Shown: piece after piece, positions 19,372 through 36,886 of the stretch
Layout: each line of letters begins with the position of its first letter
How positions within the stretch are numbered: the first letter of the stretch is position 1
Assembly (NCBI GenBank): GCA_965223855.1
Contig: CBDCXM010000009.1
Location: forward strand, 1,632,001 to 1,696,000
From: Candidatus Multivoradales bacterium
Lineage (GTDB): Bacteria > Acidobacteriota > Thermoanaerobaculia > Multivoradales > JAHEKO01
Direction: 5' to 3'
Length of the DNA: 64,000 nucleotides
The notes under the pieces: model-generated
Told to the model about the DNA's origin: nothing
The model's input: the letters and a program-made list of their open reading frames with translations, nothing else
Database searches by the model: none
Position numbers and translations under genes: made by a program

Positions 19372-20058
19372 ATGTTTTTCGATCCTGTCTACTTTCTCTT
19401 CGTCGGTCCGGCGATGCTGCTGTCGCTGTGGGCGAGCTGGAAGACGAAGTCTGCGTTCAACAAGTGGTCCAAGGTCCGCACGATGAGCGGCACCACCGGC
19501 GCCGAAGCGGCGACGAAGCTGCTCGAGAACGCCGGCATCACCGACGTCAAGGTCGTCCCGACCCGCGGCGTGCTGTCCGATCACTACAACCCGATCAACA
19601 AGACCCTCGCCCTCTCGGAGCCGGTCTACGGCTCGAACTCGGTCGCCGCCGTCGGCGTCGCCTGCCACGAAGCGGGCCACGCCATCCAGCACGCCCGCAA
19701 CTACCGCCCGATGTGGCTGCGCTCGGCCCTCGTGCCGACGACGAACATCGGCTCGAAGATCGGCTACTGGATCATGATCGCCGGCCTCTTCATGATGTCG
19801 TCGAACATCGGGCCGACGATGATCTACGTCGGCGCGGCCCTCTTCTCCCTCACCCTGATCTTCCAGATCGTCACCCTGCCGGTCGAGTTCGACGCCTCCA
19901 AGCGCGCCAAAGTCCTCGCCTTCGAGCAGGGCCTCGTCACCGATCAGGAGCGCCAGGGCGTCAGCGCCGTCCTCAACGCCGCGGCCCTGACCTACGTCGC
20001 AGCCGCGATCTCCACACTTCTCACCATCCTCTACTTCCTCTCCAGAGCTCGACGCTAA
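19372..20058 (+). CDS. Neutral zinc metallopeptidase (YugP-like, Zn_peptidase_2)
   Basis: LSDHYNP, HEAGHAIQH, TLPVEFDASKRA, AAALTYVAA. Confidence 0.9.
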   Translation: MFFDPVYFLFVGPAMLLSLWASWKTKSAFNKWSKVRTMSGTTGAEAATKLLENAGITDVKVVPTRGVLSDHYNPINKTLALSEPVYGSNSVAAVGVACHEAGHAIQHARNYRPMWLRSALVPTTNIGSKIGYWIMIAGLFMMSSNIGPTMIYVGAALFSLTLIFQIVTLPVEFDASKRAKVLAFEQGLVTDQERQGVSAVLNAAALTYVAAAISTLLTILYFLSRARR

Positions 20059-20084
20059 GCGGCGTACTTCGCCAACCGTCGTTT

Positions 20085-20460
20085 CGCGCGTCCCGAGGAT
20101 TCAGGCCGACAAAGCCCTTCTCCCCAACTGGCCGACCCGAGGACCGACCCCAGTTGGGGAGAACCCCTTTGTCGGCCTTGAGGGTAAGCCAAGAGGTGCA
20201 GCTTCTCGGCCAAGAGTGGAAGGGGGAAGGTGTGACGACCGAGCCTGCGGCTTTGTCTCTTGAGGGTTCGGCTACGTGCAGCCGCCGAGGGCCCGTTGTC
20301 TCTGGCGTCGCCTTCCGGCGACGCGTCCCCGGTCTCAACTGGGAGAAGCTGTAGCGCTCCGATCTATCAAGGGAGACAAAGGCTTTTCTCTGTCAGGGGT
20401 ATGGTCGGGTGAGGCCTGGCAGAGAAAGGGCTTTGTCTCCCTGAATCGACAGGACGCGCG
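20085..20460. repeat. Composite inverted-repeat element, copy 1 (two structured hairpin arms plus a 133-nt spacer); REPIN/MITE-like
   Basis: Hairpins at 20101-20181 and 20367-20444 are inverted homologues of each other and homologous to 36459-36829. Lies between convergent genes. Confidence 0.85.
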
Positions 20461-20469
20461 CAAACCCCG

Positions 20470-21828
20470 TCAGTCGGCCGGCTCACCCAGGATGGCCCTG
20501 AGCTCAGCCACGCGCGCCTCGAGCGCCTCCGGAGTCGCCGCCTCGCAGACGAGCCTCAGGTAAGGCTCCGTGTTCGAGGGCCGGACGTTGAACCACCAGT
20601 CGGAGTACTGGATCGTGATCCCGTCGACCTTGTCCAGCTCGCCGTCCGGGTAGCGTCGCTCGAGCTCCGCCATCGCCCCTTCCTTGTCCTCGACGACGAA
20701 GTTGATCTCCGGCGACTTCGAGTAGCGCTCCAGCCTGCCGGCGAGTGCGGACATCGGCTCGCCGCTCTTCCACAGCAGGTTGAGGATCTCGATCACCGCC
20801 ATCATCGACGAGTCGGCGTTGAAGTTGTCGCGGAAGTAGTAGTGGCCGGCGAGCTCGCCGCCGAACGGGGAGTTGCGCTCCCGCAGCGTCGCCTTGATGA
20901 AGGAGTGGCCGACCCGCTCGCGCACCGGCACGCCACCGTTCTCCCGGATGTACTCGGCCACCGCGCGTGAAGAGCGCAGGTCGTAGACGATCGCCGCGCC
21001 CGGCTCGCGCTGGAGGATCTCGCCGGCGATGAGCGCGGTCGAGAGATCGCTCCCTACCGGCCGGCCCTTCTCGTCGACGAAGGCGGCGCGGTCGGCGTCG
21101 CCGTCGAAGCAGACGCCGAGGTCGGCGCCCTCGCTCTTCACCAGCGCGCTCAGGTCGGCGAGGTTTTCGAGTTTCAGCGGGTTGGCTTCGTGGTTGGGGA
21201 AGGTGCCGTCGAGCTCGAAGTAGAGGGGCACCAGTTCGATACCCAGCTCCCGCAGCAGGTCCTCGTAGATCGTCCCCATGCCGTTGGCGGCGTCGACGGC
21301 GACCTTGAGGCGCCGGCCGTCTTCGGGCCGTCGCAGATGGGAGAGGACGAAGTCGCGGTAGTCGGAGCGGATGTCGCCTCGGGTCACCGTGCCGGGCGTC
21401 GCCGCCTGCGGCAGGTCGCCGGCGGCGACCTTCGCCTCCATGAGCGCGATGCCGGAGGCGCCGGAGACCGGTCGCGCCCCCTTGCGGCTGAACTTGAGGC
21501 CGTTGTAGCGACCCGGGTTGTGACTCGCCGTCACCTGGACGCCGCCCGCCGCACCGAGGTGGCCGACGGCGAAGTAGTTCATCGGCGTCGTTGCCAGCCC
21601 GATGTCGAGCACGTCGAGGCCGGAGGCCGTCAGGCCTTCGATCAGCGCCGCGGAAAGCGGCACGCTGCTGGTGCGCATGTCCCGGCTGACGACGATCGTG
21701 CTGTTGTCGGCCCGGTCCGAGTCGTCGAGCACGTGCTGGAACGCGAGTCCGATGGAGCGGGCCAGCTCCTCGTGGAGCTGGTCAGGGTAGATGCCTCGGA
21801 CGTCGTATGCCTTGAAGATTCCGGCCAT
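20470..21828 (-). CDS. Phosphomannomutase/phosphoglucomutase
   Basis: FKAYDVRG, TASHNP, FDGDADR, GELAGH, RPSNTEP. Confidence 0.93.
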   Translation of the reverse strand: MAGIFKAYDVRGIYPDQLHEELARSIGLAFQHVLDDSDRADNSTIVVSRDMRTSSVPLSAALIEGLTASGLDVLDIGLATTPMNYFAVGHLGAAGGVQVTASHNPGRYNGLKFSRKGARPVSGASGIALMEAKVAAGDLPQAATPGTVTRGDIRSDYRDFVLSHLRRPEDGRRLKVAVDAANGMGTIYEDLLRELGIELVPLYFELDGTFPNHEANPLKLENLADLSALVKSEGADLGVCFDGDADRAAFVDEKGRPVGSDLSTALIAGEILQREPGAAIVYDLRSSRAVAEYIRENGGVPVRERVGHSFIKATLRERNSPFGGELAGHYYFRDNFNADSSMMAVIEILNLLWKSGEPMSALAGRLERYSKSPEINFVVEDKEGAMAELERRYPDGELDKVDGITIQYSDWWFNVRPSNTEPYLRLVCEAATPEALEARVAELRAILGEPAD

Positions 21829-36409: not shown

Positions 36410-36458
36410 GCTCTCCGACAGACCACGGTTTCGGCCTTCAACCCCCTCCCTCCCCTCT

Positions 36459-36829
36459 CGCGGCCCACGGATTCAGGTCGACGAAGCCCTTTCTCTCAAC
36501 TGGCCAGCCCGACCCGACCCCAGTTGGGAGAAACCCCTTCGTCGCCCTTGACGGTAAGCAAAGCTGCAGCCTCTCCCGGGCCTGTCGGGGCGCTCCATTC
36601 CGGAGAGGCCTGAGAGTCGCTGGAGCGGGAGAACGCTCCTGAGAAGGAGCGTTTGAGCGAACTGGACTTCGAACCTCGATTCGGACTTCTGAAGCACTGC
36701 GGTGAGATCGGGAGAAGCTGTAGCGTGGCGGGTCATCAAGGGGGACGAAGGGGTTTCTCTCACCGGGGTCTGGTCGGGTTAGGCCGGTGAGAGAAAGGGC
36801 TTCGTCCCCCTGAATCCTCCAGACGCGCG
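36459..36829. repeat. Composite inverted-repeat element, copy 2 (two hairpin arms plus a 134-nt spacer)
   Basis: Hairpins at 36473-36551 and 36736-36813 are homologous to those at 20085-20460. Confidence 0.85.
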
Positions 36830-36886
36830 TTGTCGCCCAGGAACCGATCGCCAGCAGCTGAAGTCAGAGGGTGTAGGAGGTCGAAG

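What the first reader, a model, noticed from the sequence alone, without database searches (positions are those of the whole stretch)
20208..20340. Paired-arm architecture with unrelated spacers of near-identical length (133 vs 134 nt)
Seen: both elements read CGCG..GGATTCAGG[hairpin]CCTTGA.GGTAAGC.AAG..TGCAGCYTCTC - spacer - GGGAGAAGCTGTAGCG..ATCAAGG[hairpin]CCTGAATC..GACGCGCG and total about 376 and 371 bp. The spacers (20208-20340 and 36576-36709) show no similarity by eye. Left arms share left-specific features and right arms right-specific ones, so the unit has polarity. A GTAG sits about a dozen nt from each right hairpin, reminiscent of REP guide tetranucleotides. Inference: a non-autonomous mobile unit (REPIN/MITE-like) or cassette with length-constrained, exchangeable cargo.
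Basis: partly seen in the sequence, partly recalled or inferred. Interest (0 to 1): 0.7.

Follow-up and report, generated by a model that had tools for sequence, protein, structure and literature searches.

The report
Giant REPIN-like palindromic repeat pairs
The two elements are copies of a rare, gene-less palindromic repeat of an acidobacterial lineage: two large inverted hairpin "arms" around a fast-changing centre, built like the known REP doublets (REPINs) but much larger, so this is a modest, mostly ordinary find.

Summary
Both elements (window 20084-20461 and 36456-36830) are two about 121-nt arms in inverted orientation around a centre of 131 or 132 nt. The two centres are no more alike than shuffled sequence.

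The pair belongs to a small family. The genome has 10 full arms and one half arm at 7 loci. A congener, G002, has 19 strong arm matches at 17 loci.

Each arm holds a 74-nt hairpin whose stems co-vary. Its G-rich apical loop is kept in four genera of the family.

The "exchangeable, length-constrained cargo" reading is only partly supported:
- Centres of 7 intact pairs span 113-150 nt, and one metagenome pair has 18 nt.
- Several centres are inherited with their arm. E1, X228 and two G002 copies share one.
- Centres have no ORF, no promoter and mostly no structure.
- Single arms outnumber pairs in G002, and some keep remnants of a lost partner.
- GTAG is not conserved (6 of 34 arms). CGTC next to the stem is commoner (21 of 34).

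Best reading: a REPIN-like, non-autonomous hairpin repeat that lies just after gene ends. No transposase partner was found. Earlier notes of this scan describe similar repeat families in other Thermoanaerobaculia genomes.

The parts
20084..20209 (-). E1 left arm. On the - strand it reads inner box GAGAAGCTGCAC, linker, TCAAGG, the 74-nt hairpin (20104-20179, loop of the 'beta' type GGGGTCGG..TCGGGTCGGCC), CCTGAATC, then outer end GGACGCGCG.
   Evidence: CM R1 match, 106.3 bits, E 3.4e-23; alignment; sequence.
20210..20340 (.). E1 centre ('spacer'), 131 nt. It has no excess structure. Its 3' 100 nt are homologous to the spacer of the copy at G000:C9:2286962-2287051.
   Evidence: Fold z +0.29; blastn 80% over 61 nt; local alignment over about 100 nt, z 16.2.
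20285..20325 (+). Module M inside the E1 centre (GAGGGCCC..TGTCTCTGG-GTCGCC-TTCC-GGCGAC). It lies about 15 nt before the right arm. It is also found before arms in G002 (L012, L016) and in the G002 intergenic region orthologous to this site.
   Evidence: The pattern has only 3 matches in G002, against 1 for the reversed-pattern control; one match is at the orthologous site and one at L012.
20341..20461 (+). E1 right arm: inner box GGGAGAAGCTGTAGC, linker, TCAAGG, hairpin 20369-20442 with the 'alpha' loop GGGGTATGGTCGGGTGAGGCC, CCTGAATC, then GGACGCGCG.
   Evidence: CM R1, 134.9 bits, E 1.5e-30; CM R2, 87.8 bits.
36456..36577 (-). E2 left arm (beta-type loop; hairpin 36479-36548).
   Evidence: CM R1, 112.8 bits, E 7.4e-25; CM R2, 55 bits; 80% identical to the E1 left arm.
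36578..36709 (.). E2 centre, 132 nt. No detectable relative among the 22 other centres and arm-adjacent stretches compared, and no excess structure.
   Evidence: Best z 3.2 over the E2 comparisons in both orientations; chance-level against E1; fold z -0.80; the only match in the own genome is itself.
36710..36830 (+). E2 right arm (alpha-type loop; hairpin 36738-36811).
   Evidence: CM R1, 136.2 bits, E 7.2e-31; CM R2, 86.1 bits.

Best explanation
E1 and E2 are two copies of a low-copy, lineage-restricted family of non-coding palindromic repeats. The family is built like REPINs (REP doublets) at about four times the scale.

The unit ('arm', about 121 nt) has three parts:
- a 5' flank (GGGAGAAGCTGCAGC, a linker, usually CGTC);
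- a 74-nt hairpin with about 25-30 pairs and a conserved G-rich apical loop;
- a 3' flank (CCTGAATC-NNNN-GGACGCGCG).

Two arms in inverted orientation enclose a centre of roughly 113-150 nt.

Shown:
- the architecture;
- stems that co-vary under a conserved loop;
- dispersal between unrelated genes, always just after a stop codon;
- different loci and copy numbers in congeners;
- decay forms: single arms, possible partner remnants, and collapsed outer-hairpin-outer palindromes;
- centres that are shared within sub-lineages but unrelated between them.

Inferred:
- The doublet is the unit that spreads, as a folded single strand recognised in trans by a hairpin-binding enzyme. A HUH/Y1-type enzyme is the obvious candidate, but none is linked.
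- Selection for spread keeps arms and structure intact in the active lineages, while the centre is free to drift. Each inserted copy then decays neutrally.
- This would explain arms that stay about 80% alike next to centres at chance similarity, and it makes 131 against 132 nt a coincidence within a loosely kept length.
- Where the copies survive (gene 3' ends), their hairpins may also act on transcripts. That was not tested.
For: Arms and their copy number:
- 10 full arms and 1 half arm in the genome.
- In a sample of 61 genomes (relatives, G000 included), full-length arm matches at E 1e-9 or better occur only in this genome and two congeners, G001 and G002.
- 14 of 32 predicted pairs show compensatory changes among the 10 arms.

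Hairpin across 4 genera:
- 18 of 21 pairs show compensatory changes.
- 79.4% of cells are paired against 54.8% in shuffles. The covariation score is 0.70 against 0.26, reached by 0 of 500 shuffles; slid controls give 0.19-0.43.
- 10 loop columns are invariant.

Single-strand signature:
- 61 G.U pairs on the G-rich-loop strand against 7 on the other strand, and the former is more stable in 23 of 24 hairpins.
- In the stems alone, G.T 31 against A.C 12 in 39 hairpins.

Centres inherited within sub-lineages: E1-X228 z 16.2, L012-L016 z 12.4, L008-L013 z 11.7, L006-L011 z 10.9.

Centres look unconstrained:
- Fold z lies between +0.29 and -1.01 in 6 of 8.
- No promoter-like site, and terminator-like sites at the chance level.
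- No match in phages or plasmids.

Decay forms:
- Possible outer-end remnants beside S402 and S1353 and a clearer one beside L014.
- Outer-hairpin-outer palindromes at L018 and L021. Bertels and Rainey describe the same form for REPINs (PMC3337134, passages).

Position:
- All 7 G000 loci lie 7-46 nt from a stop codon.
- 19 of 20 loci in relatives face at least one gene 3' end, and 12 of 20 lie between convergent genes (ORFs are my own GC3-based calls).

Mobility or turnover:
- 0 of 7 G000 loci share flanking proteins with the 21 relatives' loci.
- The E1 site is structurally polymorphic in contigs of one sample.

Against: - No transposase partner was found. The genome has 16 Y1_Tnp matches, but the nearest lies about 46 kb from an arm, and none has flanking repeats like the arms. 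Y1_Tnp is found in 37 of 45 genomes of the family whether or not they carry the hairpin.
- No excision, empty site or target duplication was seen. The congeners' intergenic DNA is too diverged to show one, and the runs are held only as contigs.
- Copies are old (arms 61-90% alike) and few, so current mobility is unproven.
- Arm similarity does not track centre similarity. C8_R and X228_R are 90% alike with unrelated centres, while E1_R and X228_R are 83% alike with a shared centre. This also fits swapping of centres, or gene conversion of arms.
- A loop conserved across genera over fully replaced stems suggests a function beyond selfish spread.
Confidence: 0.6

Rival explanations
1. A classical MITE: a deletion derivative of an autonomous DDE-type insertion sequence. 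The 121-nt arms would be its terminal inverted repeats, and the centre would be what is left of the interior.
For: Long terminal inverted repeats, size under 500 bp, no ORF, and dispersed intergenic copies. Centres shared within sub-lineages fit descent from a few founder deletions.
Against: - No gene-carrying element with these ends exists in this 92%-complete genome. The CM finds only the 10 arms and 1 half arm, and the end-motif scan finds no further true copy.
- Arms exist and persist as self-folding units with a conserved loop, and the same hairpin sits in non-palindromic repeats of another genus. This is unlike simple transposase-binding ends.
- No target duplication is visible by eye at 3 G002 pairs, though their borders are uncertain.
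Confidence: 0.13
2. A functional structured RNA or single-strand element at gene 3' ends. It could be a terminator, an mRNA-stabilising hairpin, or the binding site of a conserved host protein. Its repetition would reflect use rather than selfish spread.
For: - The loop is invariant at 10 columns across 4 genera while the stems have turned over.
- There is a strand bias of wobble pairs.
- Every G000 copy lies 7-46 nt from a stop codon.
- 12 of 20 loci in relatives lie between convergent genes.
Against: - No Rfam family matches. There are none at gathering scores, and only microRNA-type hairpin noise far below threshold.
- Orientation relative to the upstream gene is not fixed. S402 and S572 present the C-rich strand to the adjacent gene's transcript, and S1353 presents the G-rich one.
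- Loci are not shared between congeners.
- Many copies are truncated or decayed.
- There are only 7 loci among thousands of genes.
Confidence: 0.15
3. One reading: a cassette or switch whose centre is exchangeable cargo of fixed length, swapped or inverted between the 120-bp inverted arms.
For: - E1 and E2 share arm types (left beta, right alpha) but have unrelated centres of 131 and 132 nt.
- The closest arms (C8_R and X228_R, 90%) carry unrelated centres.
- One low-depth contig carries a different, longer interior at the E1 site.
Against: - Centre lengths are 113-150 nt, plus 18 and 89 nt.
- Centres have no ORF of note, no promoter, and no excess structure in 6 of 8.
- Centres have no match in the own genome apart from X228, and none in phages or plasmids.
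- Several centres are plainly inherited with their arm across loci and species.
- Contigs that bridge E2 show the reference form only.
Confidence: 0.05

Closest known systems
REPINs (REP doublets) of Pseudomonas and enterobacteria, mobilised by RAYT (Bertels and Rainey 2011; PMC3337134, passages read)
   Same: - Two palindrome-bearing units in inverted orientation around a less conserved spacer.
- Each unit is a 5' flank, a palindrome and a 3' flank.
- Spacer sequences differ between copies, and several spacing classes exist.
- Singlets are decayed doublets.
- Long 'a-palindrome-a-complement' forms arise by loss of the centre; L018 and L021 are of this kind.
- Position is intergenic.
   Different: - The unit is 121 nt with a 74-nt hairpin, not about 20-40 nt.
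- There are 10 arms per genome, not hundreds.
- No RAYT-type gene is flanked by the repeat.
- GTAG is not conserved (6 of 34 arms).
- Spacers do not form hairpins in 6 of 8 cases.
- Hybrid doublets of two loop types exist (E1, E2), whereas the paper reports no hybrids.
CGTC-tagged REP families and their head-to-head dimers (Di Nocera, De Gregorio and Rocco 2013; PMC3733652, abstract and passages)
   Same: - CGTC (or TGTC or CCTC) lies directly 5' of the stem in 24 of 34 arms.
- Dimers are in opposite orientation.
[quoted passage not shown]
- They lie mostly downstream of genes and between convergent genes.
- No dedicated transposase is found.
   Different: - Stems there are 8-9 bp with 4-5 nt loops; here they are about 25-30 bp with a conserved loop of about 21 nt.
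- Spacers there are 20-100 bp.
- Here the TC of the tag is predicted to pair.
- There is no CCA tail.
TIR repeat families linked to TIRYT tyrosine transposases ('TIRtrons'), including an acidobacterial group (same paper, passages)
   Same: - Longer inverted repeats, some self-complementary, occur as singles, dimers or clusters.
- A G-run motif (GGGGWSAS) is shared by some TIRs, and the loops here start with GGGG.
- The host phylum is the same.
   Different: - None of the 16 Y1_Tnp ORFs of this genome is flanked by arms or by any long inverted repeat.
- The loop box here (GGGGYNTGGTCGGGTGAGGCC) does not fit GGGGWSAS.
- I could not see the paper's Figure 9 sequences, so sequence likeness is untested.
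Classical bacterial MITEs and ERIC/BIME-type intergenic palindromes (named from my own knowledge)
   Same: Small, gene-less and hairpin-forming, with inverted ends, lying in intergenic DNA.
   Different: No parent insertion sequence and no target duplication were found. The self-folding arm with a loop conserved across genera is the real unit.

Membership tests
REPIN | [quoted passage not shown] | tested here: met
   3 inverted pairs in G000, 4 in G002 and 1 metagenome pair.
REPIN | REP unit is a short (about 20-40 bp) imperfect palindrome | tested here: not met
   The arm is 121 model positions with a 74-nt hairpin.
REPIN | A RAYT (Y1/HUH) gene flanked by the repeats | tested here: not met
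   16 Y1_Tnp matches in G000, the nearest about 46 kb from an arm, and none has flanking arms or long inverted repeats. The genes between two inverted hairpins in G028 are ordinary.
REPIN | Abundant population (tens to hundreds per genome) | tested here: not met
   10 full arms in G000 and 19 strong arm matches (E 3e-11 or better) in G002. The hairpin alone reaches 39 matches in G028.
REPIN | Conserved GTAG at the 5' end of the REP | tested here: not met
   GTAG in 6 of 34 arms, and it lies about 13 nt from the stem.
REPIN | Excision of doublets seen in population sequencing | tested here: inconclusive
   Only contigs were on hand. E2 is bridged unchanged, and the E1 site has two low-depth structural variants.
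CGTC-tagged REP superfamily | Unpaired CGTC/TGTC/CCTC tag at one end of the stem-loop | tested here: inconclusive
   CGTC in 21, TGTC in 2 and CCTC in 1 of 34 arms, directly 5' of AAGG. RNAalifold pairs the TC(A) of it with TGA on the other side.
CGTC-tagged REP superfamily | Stem of 8-9 bp and loop of 4-5 nt | tested here: not met
   About 25-30 pairs and a loop region of about 21 nt.
Classical MITE | Terminal inverted repeats, small size, no coding capacity | tested here: met
Classical MITE | Target-site duplication | tested here: inconclusive
   No empty site was alignable in the congeners. None is visible by eye at 3 G002 pairs.
Classical MITE | An autonomous element with the same ends | tested here: not met
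   No further arm or end motif in G000. The genome is 92% complete, so absence is not proven.
Known RNA families (Rfam 15) | Match at the family's gathering score | tested here: not met
   0 matches in the window. Only microRNA-hairpin noise at 16-31 bits against cut-offs of 70-150.
Invertible DNA switch | A promoter or gene part inside, and both orientations present in a population | tested here: not met
   No promoter-like site. No joint at either element among the 15 joints listed (87 more not shown); contigs only, so this is weak.

The most novel reading that the evidence does not exclude
The real unit may be the 74-nt hairpin. Its G-rich apical box (GGGG-NNN-GGTCGGGTGAGGCC) has stayed nearly fixed in at least four genera while the stems were completely replaced and still pair, and its wobble pairs favour one strand. 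It could be the docking site, on single-stranded DNA or RNA, of a conserved and still unknown trans-acting protein of this Thermoanaerobaculia family. Different repeat families would then have been built around it, including the doublets here and a directional repeat of about 330 nt in another genus. The doublet centre of about 113-150 nt could reflect a geometric need of that protein.
Probability: 0.15. Interest if true: 0.6.

Novelty: new variant of a known kind. Interest (0 to 1): 0.3.

Why it matters
The main value is for annotation and assembly of Acidobacteriota. These elements of about 375 bp fill whole intergenic regions after stop codons, throw up false ORFs, and are places where short-read contigs end or vary.

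There are two points of modest biological interest.
- REP/REPIN-style doublet architecture, with its typical decay forms, recurs at about four times the usual scale in a phylum where the system is not described and no linked RAYT is seen.
- A hairpin loop conserved across genera over freely changing stems points to a specific binding partner that could be fished out.

Tried and rejected
- Rfam: nothing at gathering scores or at permissive thresholds.
- Whole-collection pattern scans. Only 6 loci, all from one Thermoanaerobaculia MAG, were true by CM. The metagenome scan gave 5 stretches, 1 true. The family's wider spread is therefore under-sampled.
- Empty-site comparison. The E1 and E2 neighbourhoods exist in the congeners, but the intergenic DNA does not align or synteny breaks, so no borders or target duplication could be read.
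- Sequencing runs: no RNA holder is listed. The four runs laid are contigs of one sample, and they showed no inversion or excision joints at the elements among the rows shown.
- Transposase hunt. Y1_Tnp genes are common (37 of 45 genomes of the family, a tally that includes the unpublished G005) and do not track the hairpin. None lies beside a copy, and none has arm-like flanks.
- A genome-wide small-repeat origin for module M, and for the 'outer' hairpin of G002, was rejected for this genome. M occurs only in the two elements, plus 2 loose pattern matches elsewhere that I did not follow up. The outer module is absent.
- Spacer inversion between E1 and E2 was rejected: the reverse orientation is also at chance.
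- Phage and plasmid origin of the elements: no match.

Full report
**Observation.** I aligned the ten arm copies of the genome and built a covariance model from them (R1, 121 positions, 32 pairs).
- In the whole 4.52-Mb genome (9 contigs, 92% complete) the model finds 10 full-length arms at E between 6.4e-33 and 3.4e-23. It also finds one half arm, and weak reverse-strand echoes of the same hairpins.
- In window coordinates E1 is left arm 20084-20209(-), centre 20210-20340, right arm 20341-20461(+).
- E2 is left arm 36456-36577(-), centre 36578-36709, right arm 36710-36830(+).
- The centres are at chance similarity in both orientations. The local score is 9 against 9.3 +/- 1.5 in 1000 shuffles, with 607 and 568 shuffles at least as high. 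The global alignment is also below the shuffle mean.
- The arms of E1 and E2 are 99 of 126 (left) and 95 of 121 (right) columns identical.

**Anatomy of the arm.** Read 5' to 3' on its own strand, an arm has these parts:
- an inner box, GGGAGAAGCTGCAGC;
- a variable linker of about 12 nt, usually ending in CGTC;
- AAGG and the first half of a long stem;
- a G-rich apical region, either GGGGYNTGGTCGGGTGAGGCC ('alpha') or GGGGTYGGGAYGGGCTGGCC ('beta');
- the second half of the stem;
- CCTGAATC, four variable bases, and the outer end GGACGCGCG.

Among the 10 arms, 14 of 32 predicted pairs keep pairing through changes on both sides. As RNA the whole elements fold far better than shuffles: E1 -202 kcal/mol (z -6.5) and E2 -241 kcal/mol (z -13.2). 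In E1 each arm folds on itself; in E2 the two arms pair with each other.

It occurs in 6 of 34 arms, against GCAG in 8 and GCAC in 7. CGTC directly before the stem occurs in 21 of 34, TGTC in 2 and CCTC in 1.

**The family in this genome.**
- There are seven loci. Three are inverted pairs: E1, E2 and G000:C8:519955-520346, whose centre is 150 nt.
- One locus is a half arm followed by 89 nt and a full arm in direct orientation ('X228', G000:C9:2286888-2287172).
- Three loci are single arms (S402, S572, S1353). S402 and S1353 show what may be remnants of a partner's outer end beside them, read by eye.
- Left-arm polarity holds for E1 and E2. Their left arms are 80% alike and carry beta loops, while their right arms carry alpha loops. 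It does not hold for the C8 pair, whose arms are both alpha.
- All seven loci are intergenic and lie 7-46 nt from a stop codon (my own ORF calls by third-position G+C).
- E1 fills the gap between the convergent genes for a Zn peptidase and a phosphoglucomutase-type enzyme. E2 lies between a C-N hydrolase gene and a TonB-type gene.

**Relatives.** The organism is an acidobacterium of the class Thermoanaerobaculia. This rests on the record titles and on earlier notes of the scan.
- In a sample of 61 genomes (relatives, G000 included), full-length arm matches at E 1e-9 or better occur only in this genome and two congeners. G002 has 23 matches at E 0.001 or better and G001 has 6. G003 has 1, the hairpin only. 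G004 has 0 and is 77% complete (the sample includes the unpublished G005, which had no match).
- G002 has 4 inverted pairs with centres of 127, 117, 122 and 113 nt, 11 single arms, and 2 collapsed forms made of outer end, hairpin and outer end (L018, L021).
- The G002 pairs carry an extra small hairpin (CCGGGGGCACGAGTCCCCCGG) about 45 nt outside each outer end. That module is absent from this genome.
- One single (L014) still has the partner's outer end and the first bases of its hairpin.
- The only true metagenome hit (1 of 5 stretches) is a pair with an 18-nt centre.
- The seven intact pairs therefore have centres of 113-150 nt, mean 127, SD about 12.
- None of the 7 loci of this genome shares flanking proteins with the 21 element loci of relatives that I compared. 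The G002 regions orthologous to the E1 and E2 sites carry no arm.

**Are the centres cargo?**
- I compared 8 centres and 15 stretches next to single arms, in both orientations, against shuffles.
- Several are clearly related: E1 with X228 (z 16.2, about 100 nt), L012 with L016 (12.4), X228 with L016 (11.6), E1 with L012 (9.0), L006 with L011 (10.9).
- In mirror orientation, as expected for the stretch next to a left arm, L008 matches L013 (11.7), L007 matches L014 (9.8) and L008 matches L010a (9.4).
- So a stretch of about 70-100 nt next to one arm is inherited with that arm, across loci and across species.
- E2 (best z 3.2) and C8 (best z 4.0) have no detectable relative.
- Six of the eight centres fold no better than shuffles (z +0.29 to -1.01). 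Only C8 (-4.5) and X228 (-3.8) hold strong hairpins.
- There is no promoter-like site, and terminator-like sites are at the chance level.
- Neither element matches phage or plasmid records. The centres match nothing else in the genome except X228.
- A low-depth contig of the same sample shows the E1 locus with 22 letters missing, 16 of them in the centre. This speaks against a strict length rule.

**Why are the arms alike and the centres not?**
- E1 and X228 have arms 83% and centres about 80% alike, so an inserted copy seems to decay at one rate throughout.
- E1 and E2 have arms 79% alike and centres at chance, while the most similar arms (C8_R and X228_R, 90%) have unrelated centres.
- The simplest account is inferred, not shown. 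Active lineages keep arms and pairing under selection while their centres drift apart. Copies then decay neutrally after insertion.
- Recombination between arms that swaps centres, or gene conversion of arms, would give the same picture and is not excluded.

**The hairpin is older than the doublet.**
- Weak R1 hits in other genera turned out to be hairpins with the same apical box on stems of entirely different sequence.
- An alignment of 24 hairpins from 8 genomes in 4 genera has 10 invariant columns, all in the apical region.
- 18 of 21 predicted pairs have compensatory changes.
- 79.4% of cells are paired against 54.8% in shuffles. The covariation score is 0.70 against 0.26 (0 of 500 shuffles reach it), and slid controls give 0.19-0.43. 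The sequences are related, so the shuffle count is not a probability.
- A hairpin-only model (R2) finds the hairpin in 12 of 45 genomes of the family, with up to 39 matches in G028 and 23 in G066 (G005 is included and had no match).
- It finds none in 145 genomes of other families of the class. Two of 151 genomes matched, and both belong to this family.
- In G028 the hairpin ends a directional, gene-less repeat of about 300-420 nt, not a palindromic doublet.
- Folding favours the G-rich-loop strand: 61 G.U pairs against 7, and it is more stable in 23 of 24 hairpins. In the stems alone, G.T 31 against A.C 12 in 39 hairpins. This points to a single-stranded form of that strand, DNA or RNA. The counts come from related copies, and part of the bias lies in the loop itself.

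**Who moves it?** This is unknown.
- The genome has 16 matches to the Y1 (HUH) transposase family. The nearest is about 46 kb from an arm, and none has arm-like or other long inverted flanks.
- The family is found in 37 of 45 genomes regardless of the hairpin (one of the 37 is the unpublished G005).
- Two inverted hairpins 2.8 kb apart in G028 enclose ordinary genes.
- No gene-carrying element with these ends exists in the genome.

**Comparison with what is known.**
- Bertels and Rainey (PMC3337134, passages read) describe REPINs as two REPs in inverted orientation around a less conserved spacer. No two spacers are identical, several spacing classes exist, singlets are decaying remnants, and long palindromes are formed by loss of the centre. 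All of these are seen here.
[quoted passage not shown] They also describe CGTC-tagged families without a dedicated transposase, and acidobacterial tyrosine transposases flanked by long inverted repeats.
- This family fails the defining tests for REPIN membership: unit size, copy number, RAYT linkage and GTAG. It also fails the test for the CGTC families (stem and loop size). I therefore file it as working like a REPIN, not as a member.
- My two literature searches turned up no description of such repeats in Thermoanaerobaculia. I make no wider claim about what is in print.
- Earlier notes of this scan report similar palindromic, loop-conserved repeats in other Thermoanaerobaculia genomes. They agree with this reading but are unchecked AI notes. 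A look-up by sequence found no look-alike of this arm.

**Verdict.**
- The cargo, length-rule and GTAG half does not, apart from the unexplained lack of any relative for the E2 and C8 centres.
- Novelty: a new variant of a known kind.
- Interest is modest (0.3).

Noticed in passing
window 20285-20325; G002:C39:32391-32410: Module M of the E1 centre (a small GTCGCC-NNNN-GGCGAC hairpin with a conserved 5' lead) also lies in the G002 intergenic region orthologous to the E1 site, where there is no arm. There it is followed by the G002 'outer' hairpin and a GGAGAAGC remnant. It is either an old decayed element at the same site or local DNA that was picked up and spread.
   Followed up: partly
G000:C9:2286888-2287172 (locus L005:1090-1373): The X228 copy is a half arm plus 89 nt plus a full arm in direct, not inverted, orientation. 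The half arm has the left-arm type linker (CCTTACCCTCAAGG) but an alpha-type loop, so it looks like a rearranged or chimeric doublet.
   Followed up: partly
window 20034-21099 (tables): Contigs of one sample show two variants at the E1 site. One is a 399-nt contig at depth 3.4 with 22 letters missing, mostly in the centre. The other is a 1603-nt contig at depth 2 whose interior is about 150 nt longer and whose left arm matches the reverse complement of the right arm.
   Followed up: no
loci L168-L174 and L180-L183 (G028): In another genus the same hairpin ends a directional repeat of about 300-420 nt. That repeat has a co-varying 5' hairpin and runs of TAGGGGC-like G-rich heptamers, with recurrent CTCAACCC motifs downstream. 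There are up to 39 hairpin matches in that genome.
   Followed up: partly
G000, 16 places listed (for example C9:526261-526527, C9:3053612-3053878, C9:93439-93705, C4:8540-8806): There are many ORFs of about 300 aa with weak Y1_Tnp (HUH transposase) matches, several with identical scores. This suggests a multi-copy element of its own, with no long inverted flanks.
   Followed up: partly
L178 (G012:C2:9673-9743): One copy of the loop-conserved hairpin lies in a stretch that reads like coding sequence, so it may be an in-frame insertion. I did not check this.
   Followed up: no
loci L006-L009 (G002): All four G002 pairs are bracketed by an extra small inverted hairpin (CCGGGGGCACGAGTCCCCCGG) about 45 nt outside the arms. 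This gives a three-level nested palindrome of about 500 nt. I saw no target duplication at its ends.
   Followed up: partly
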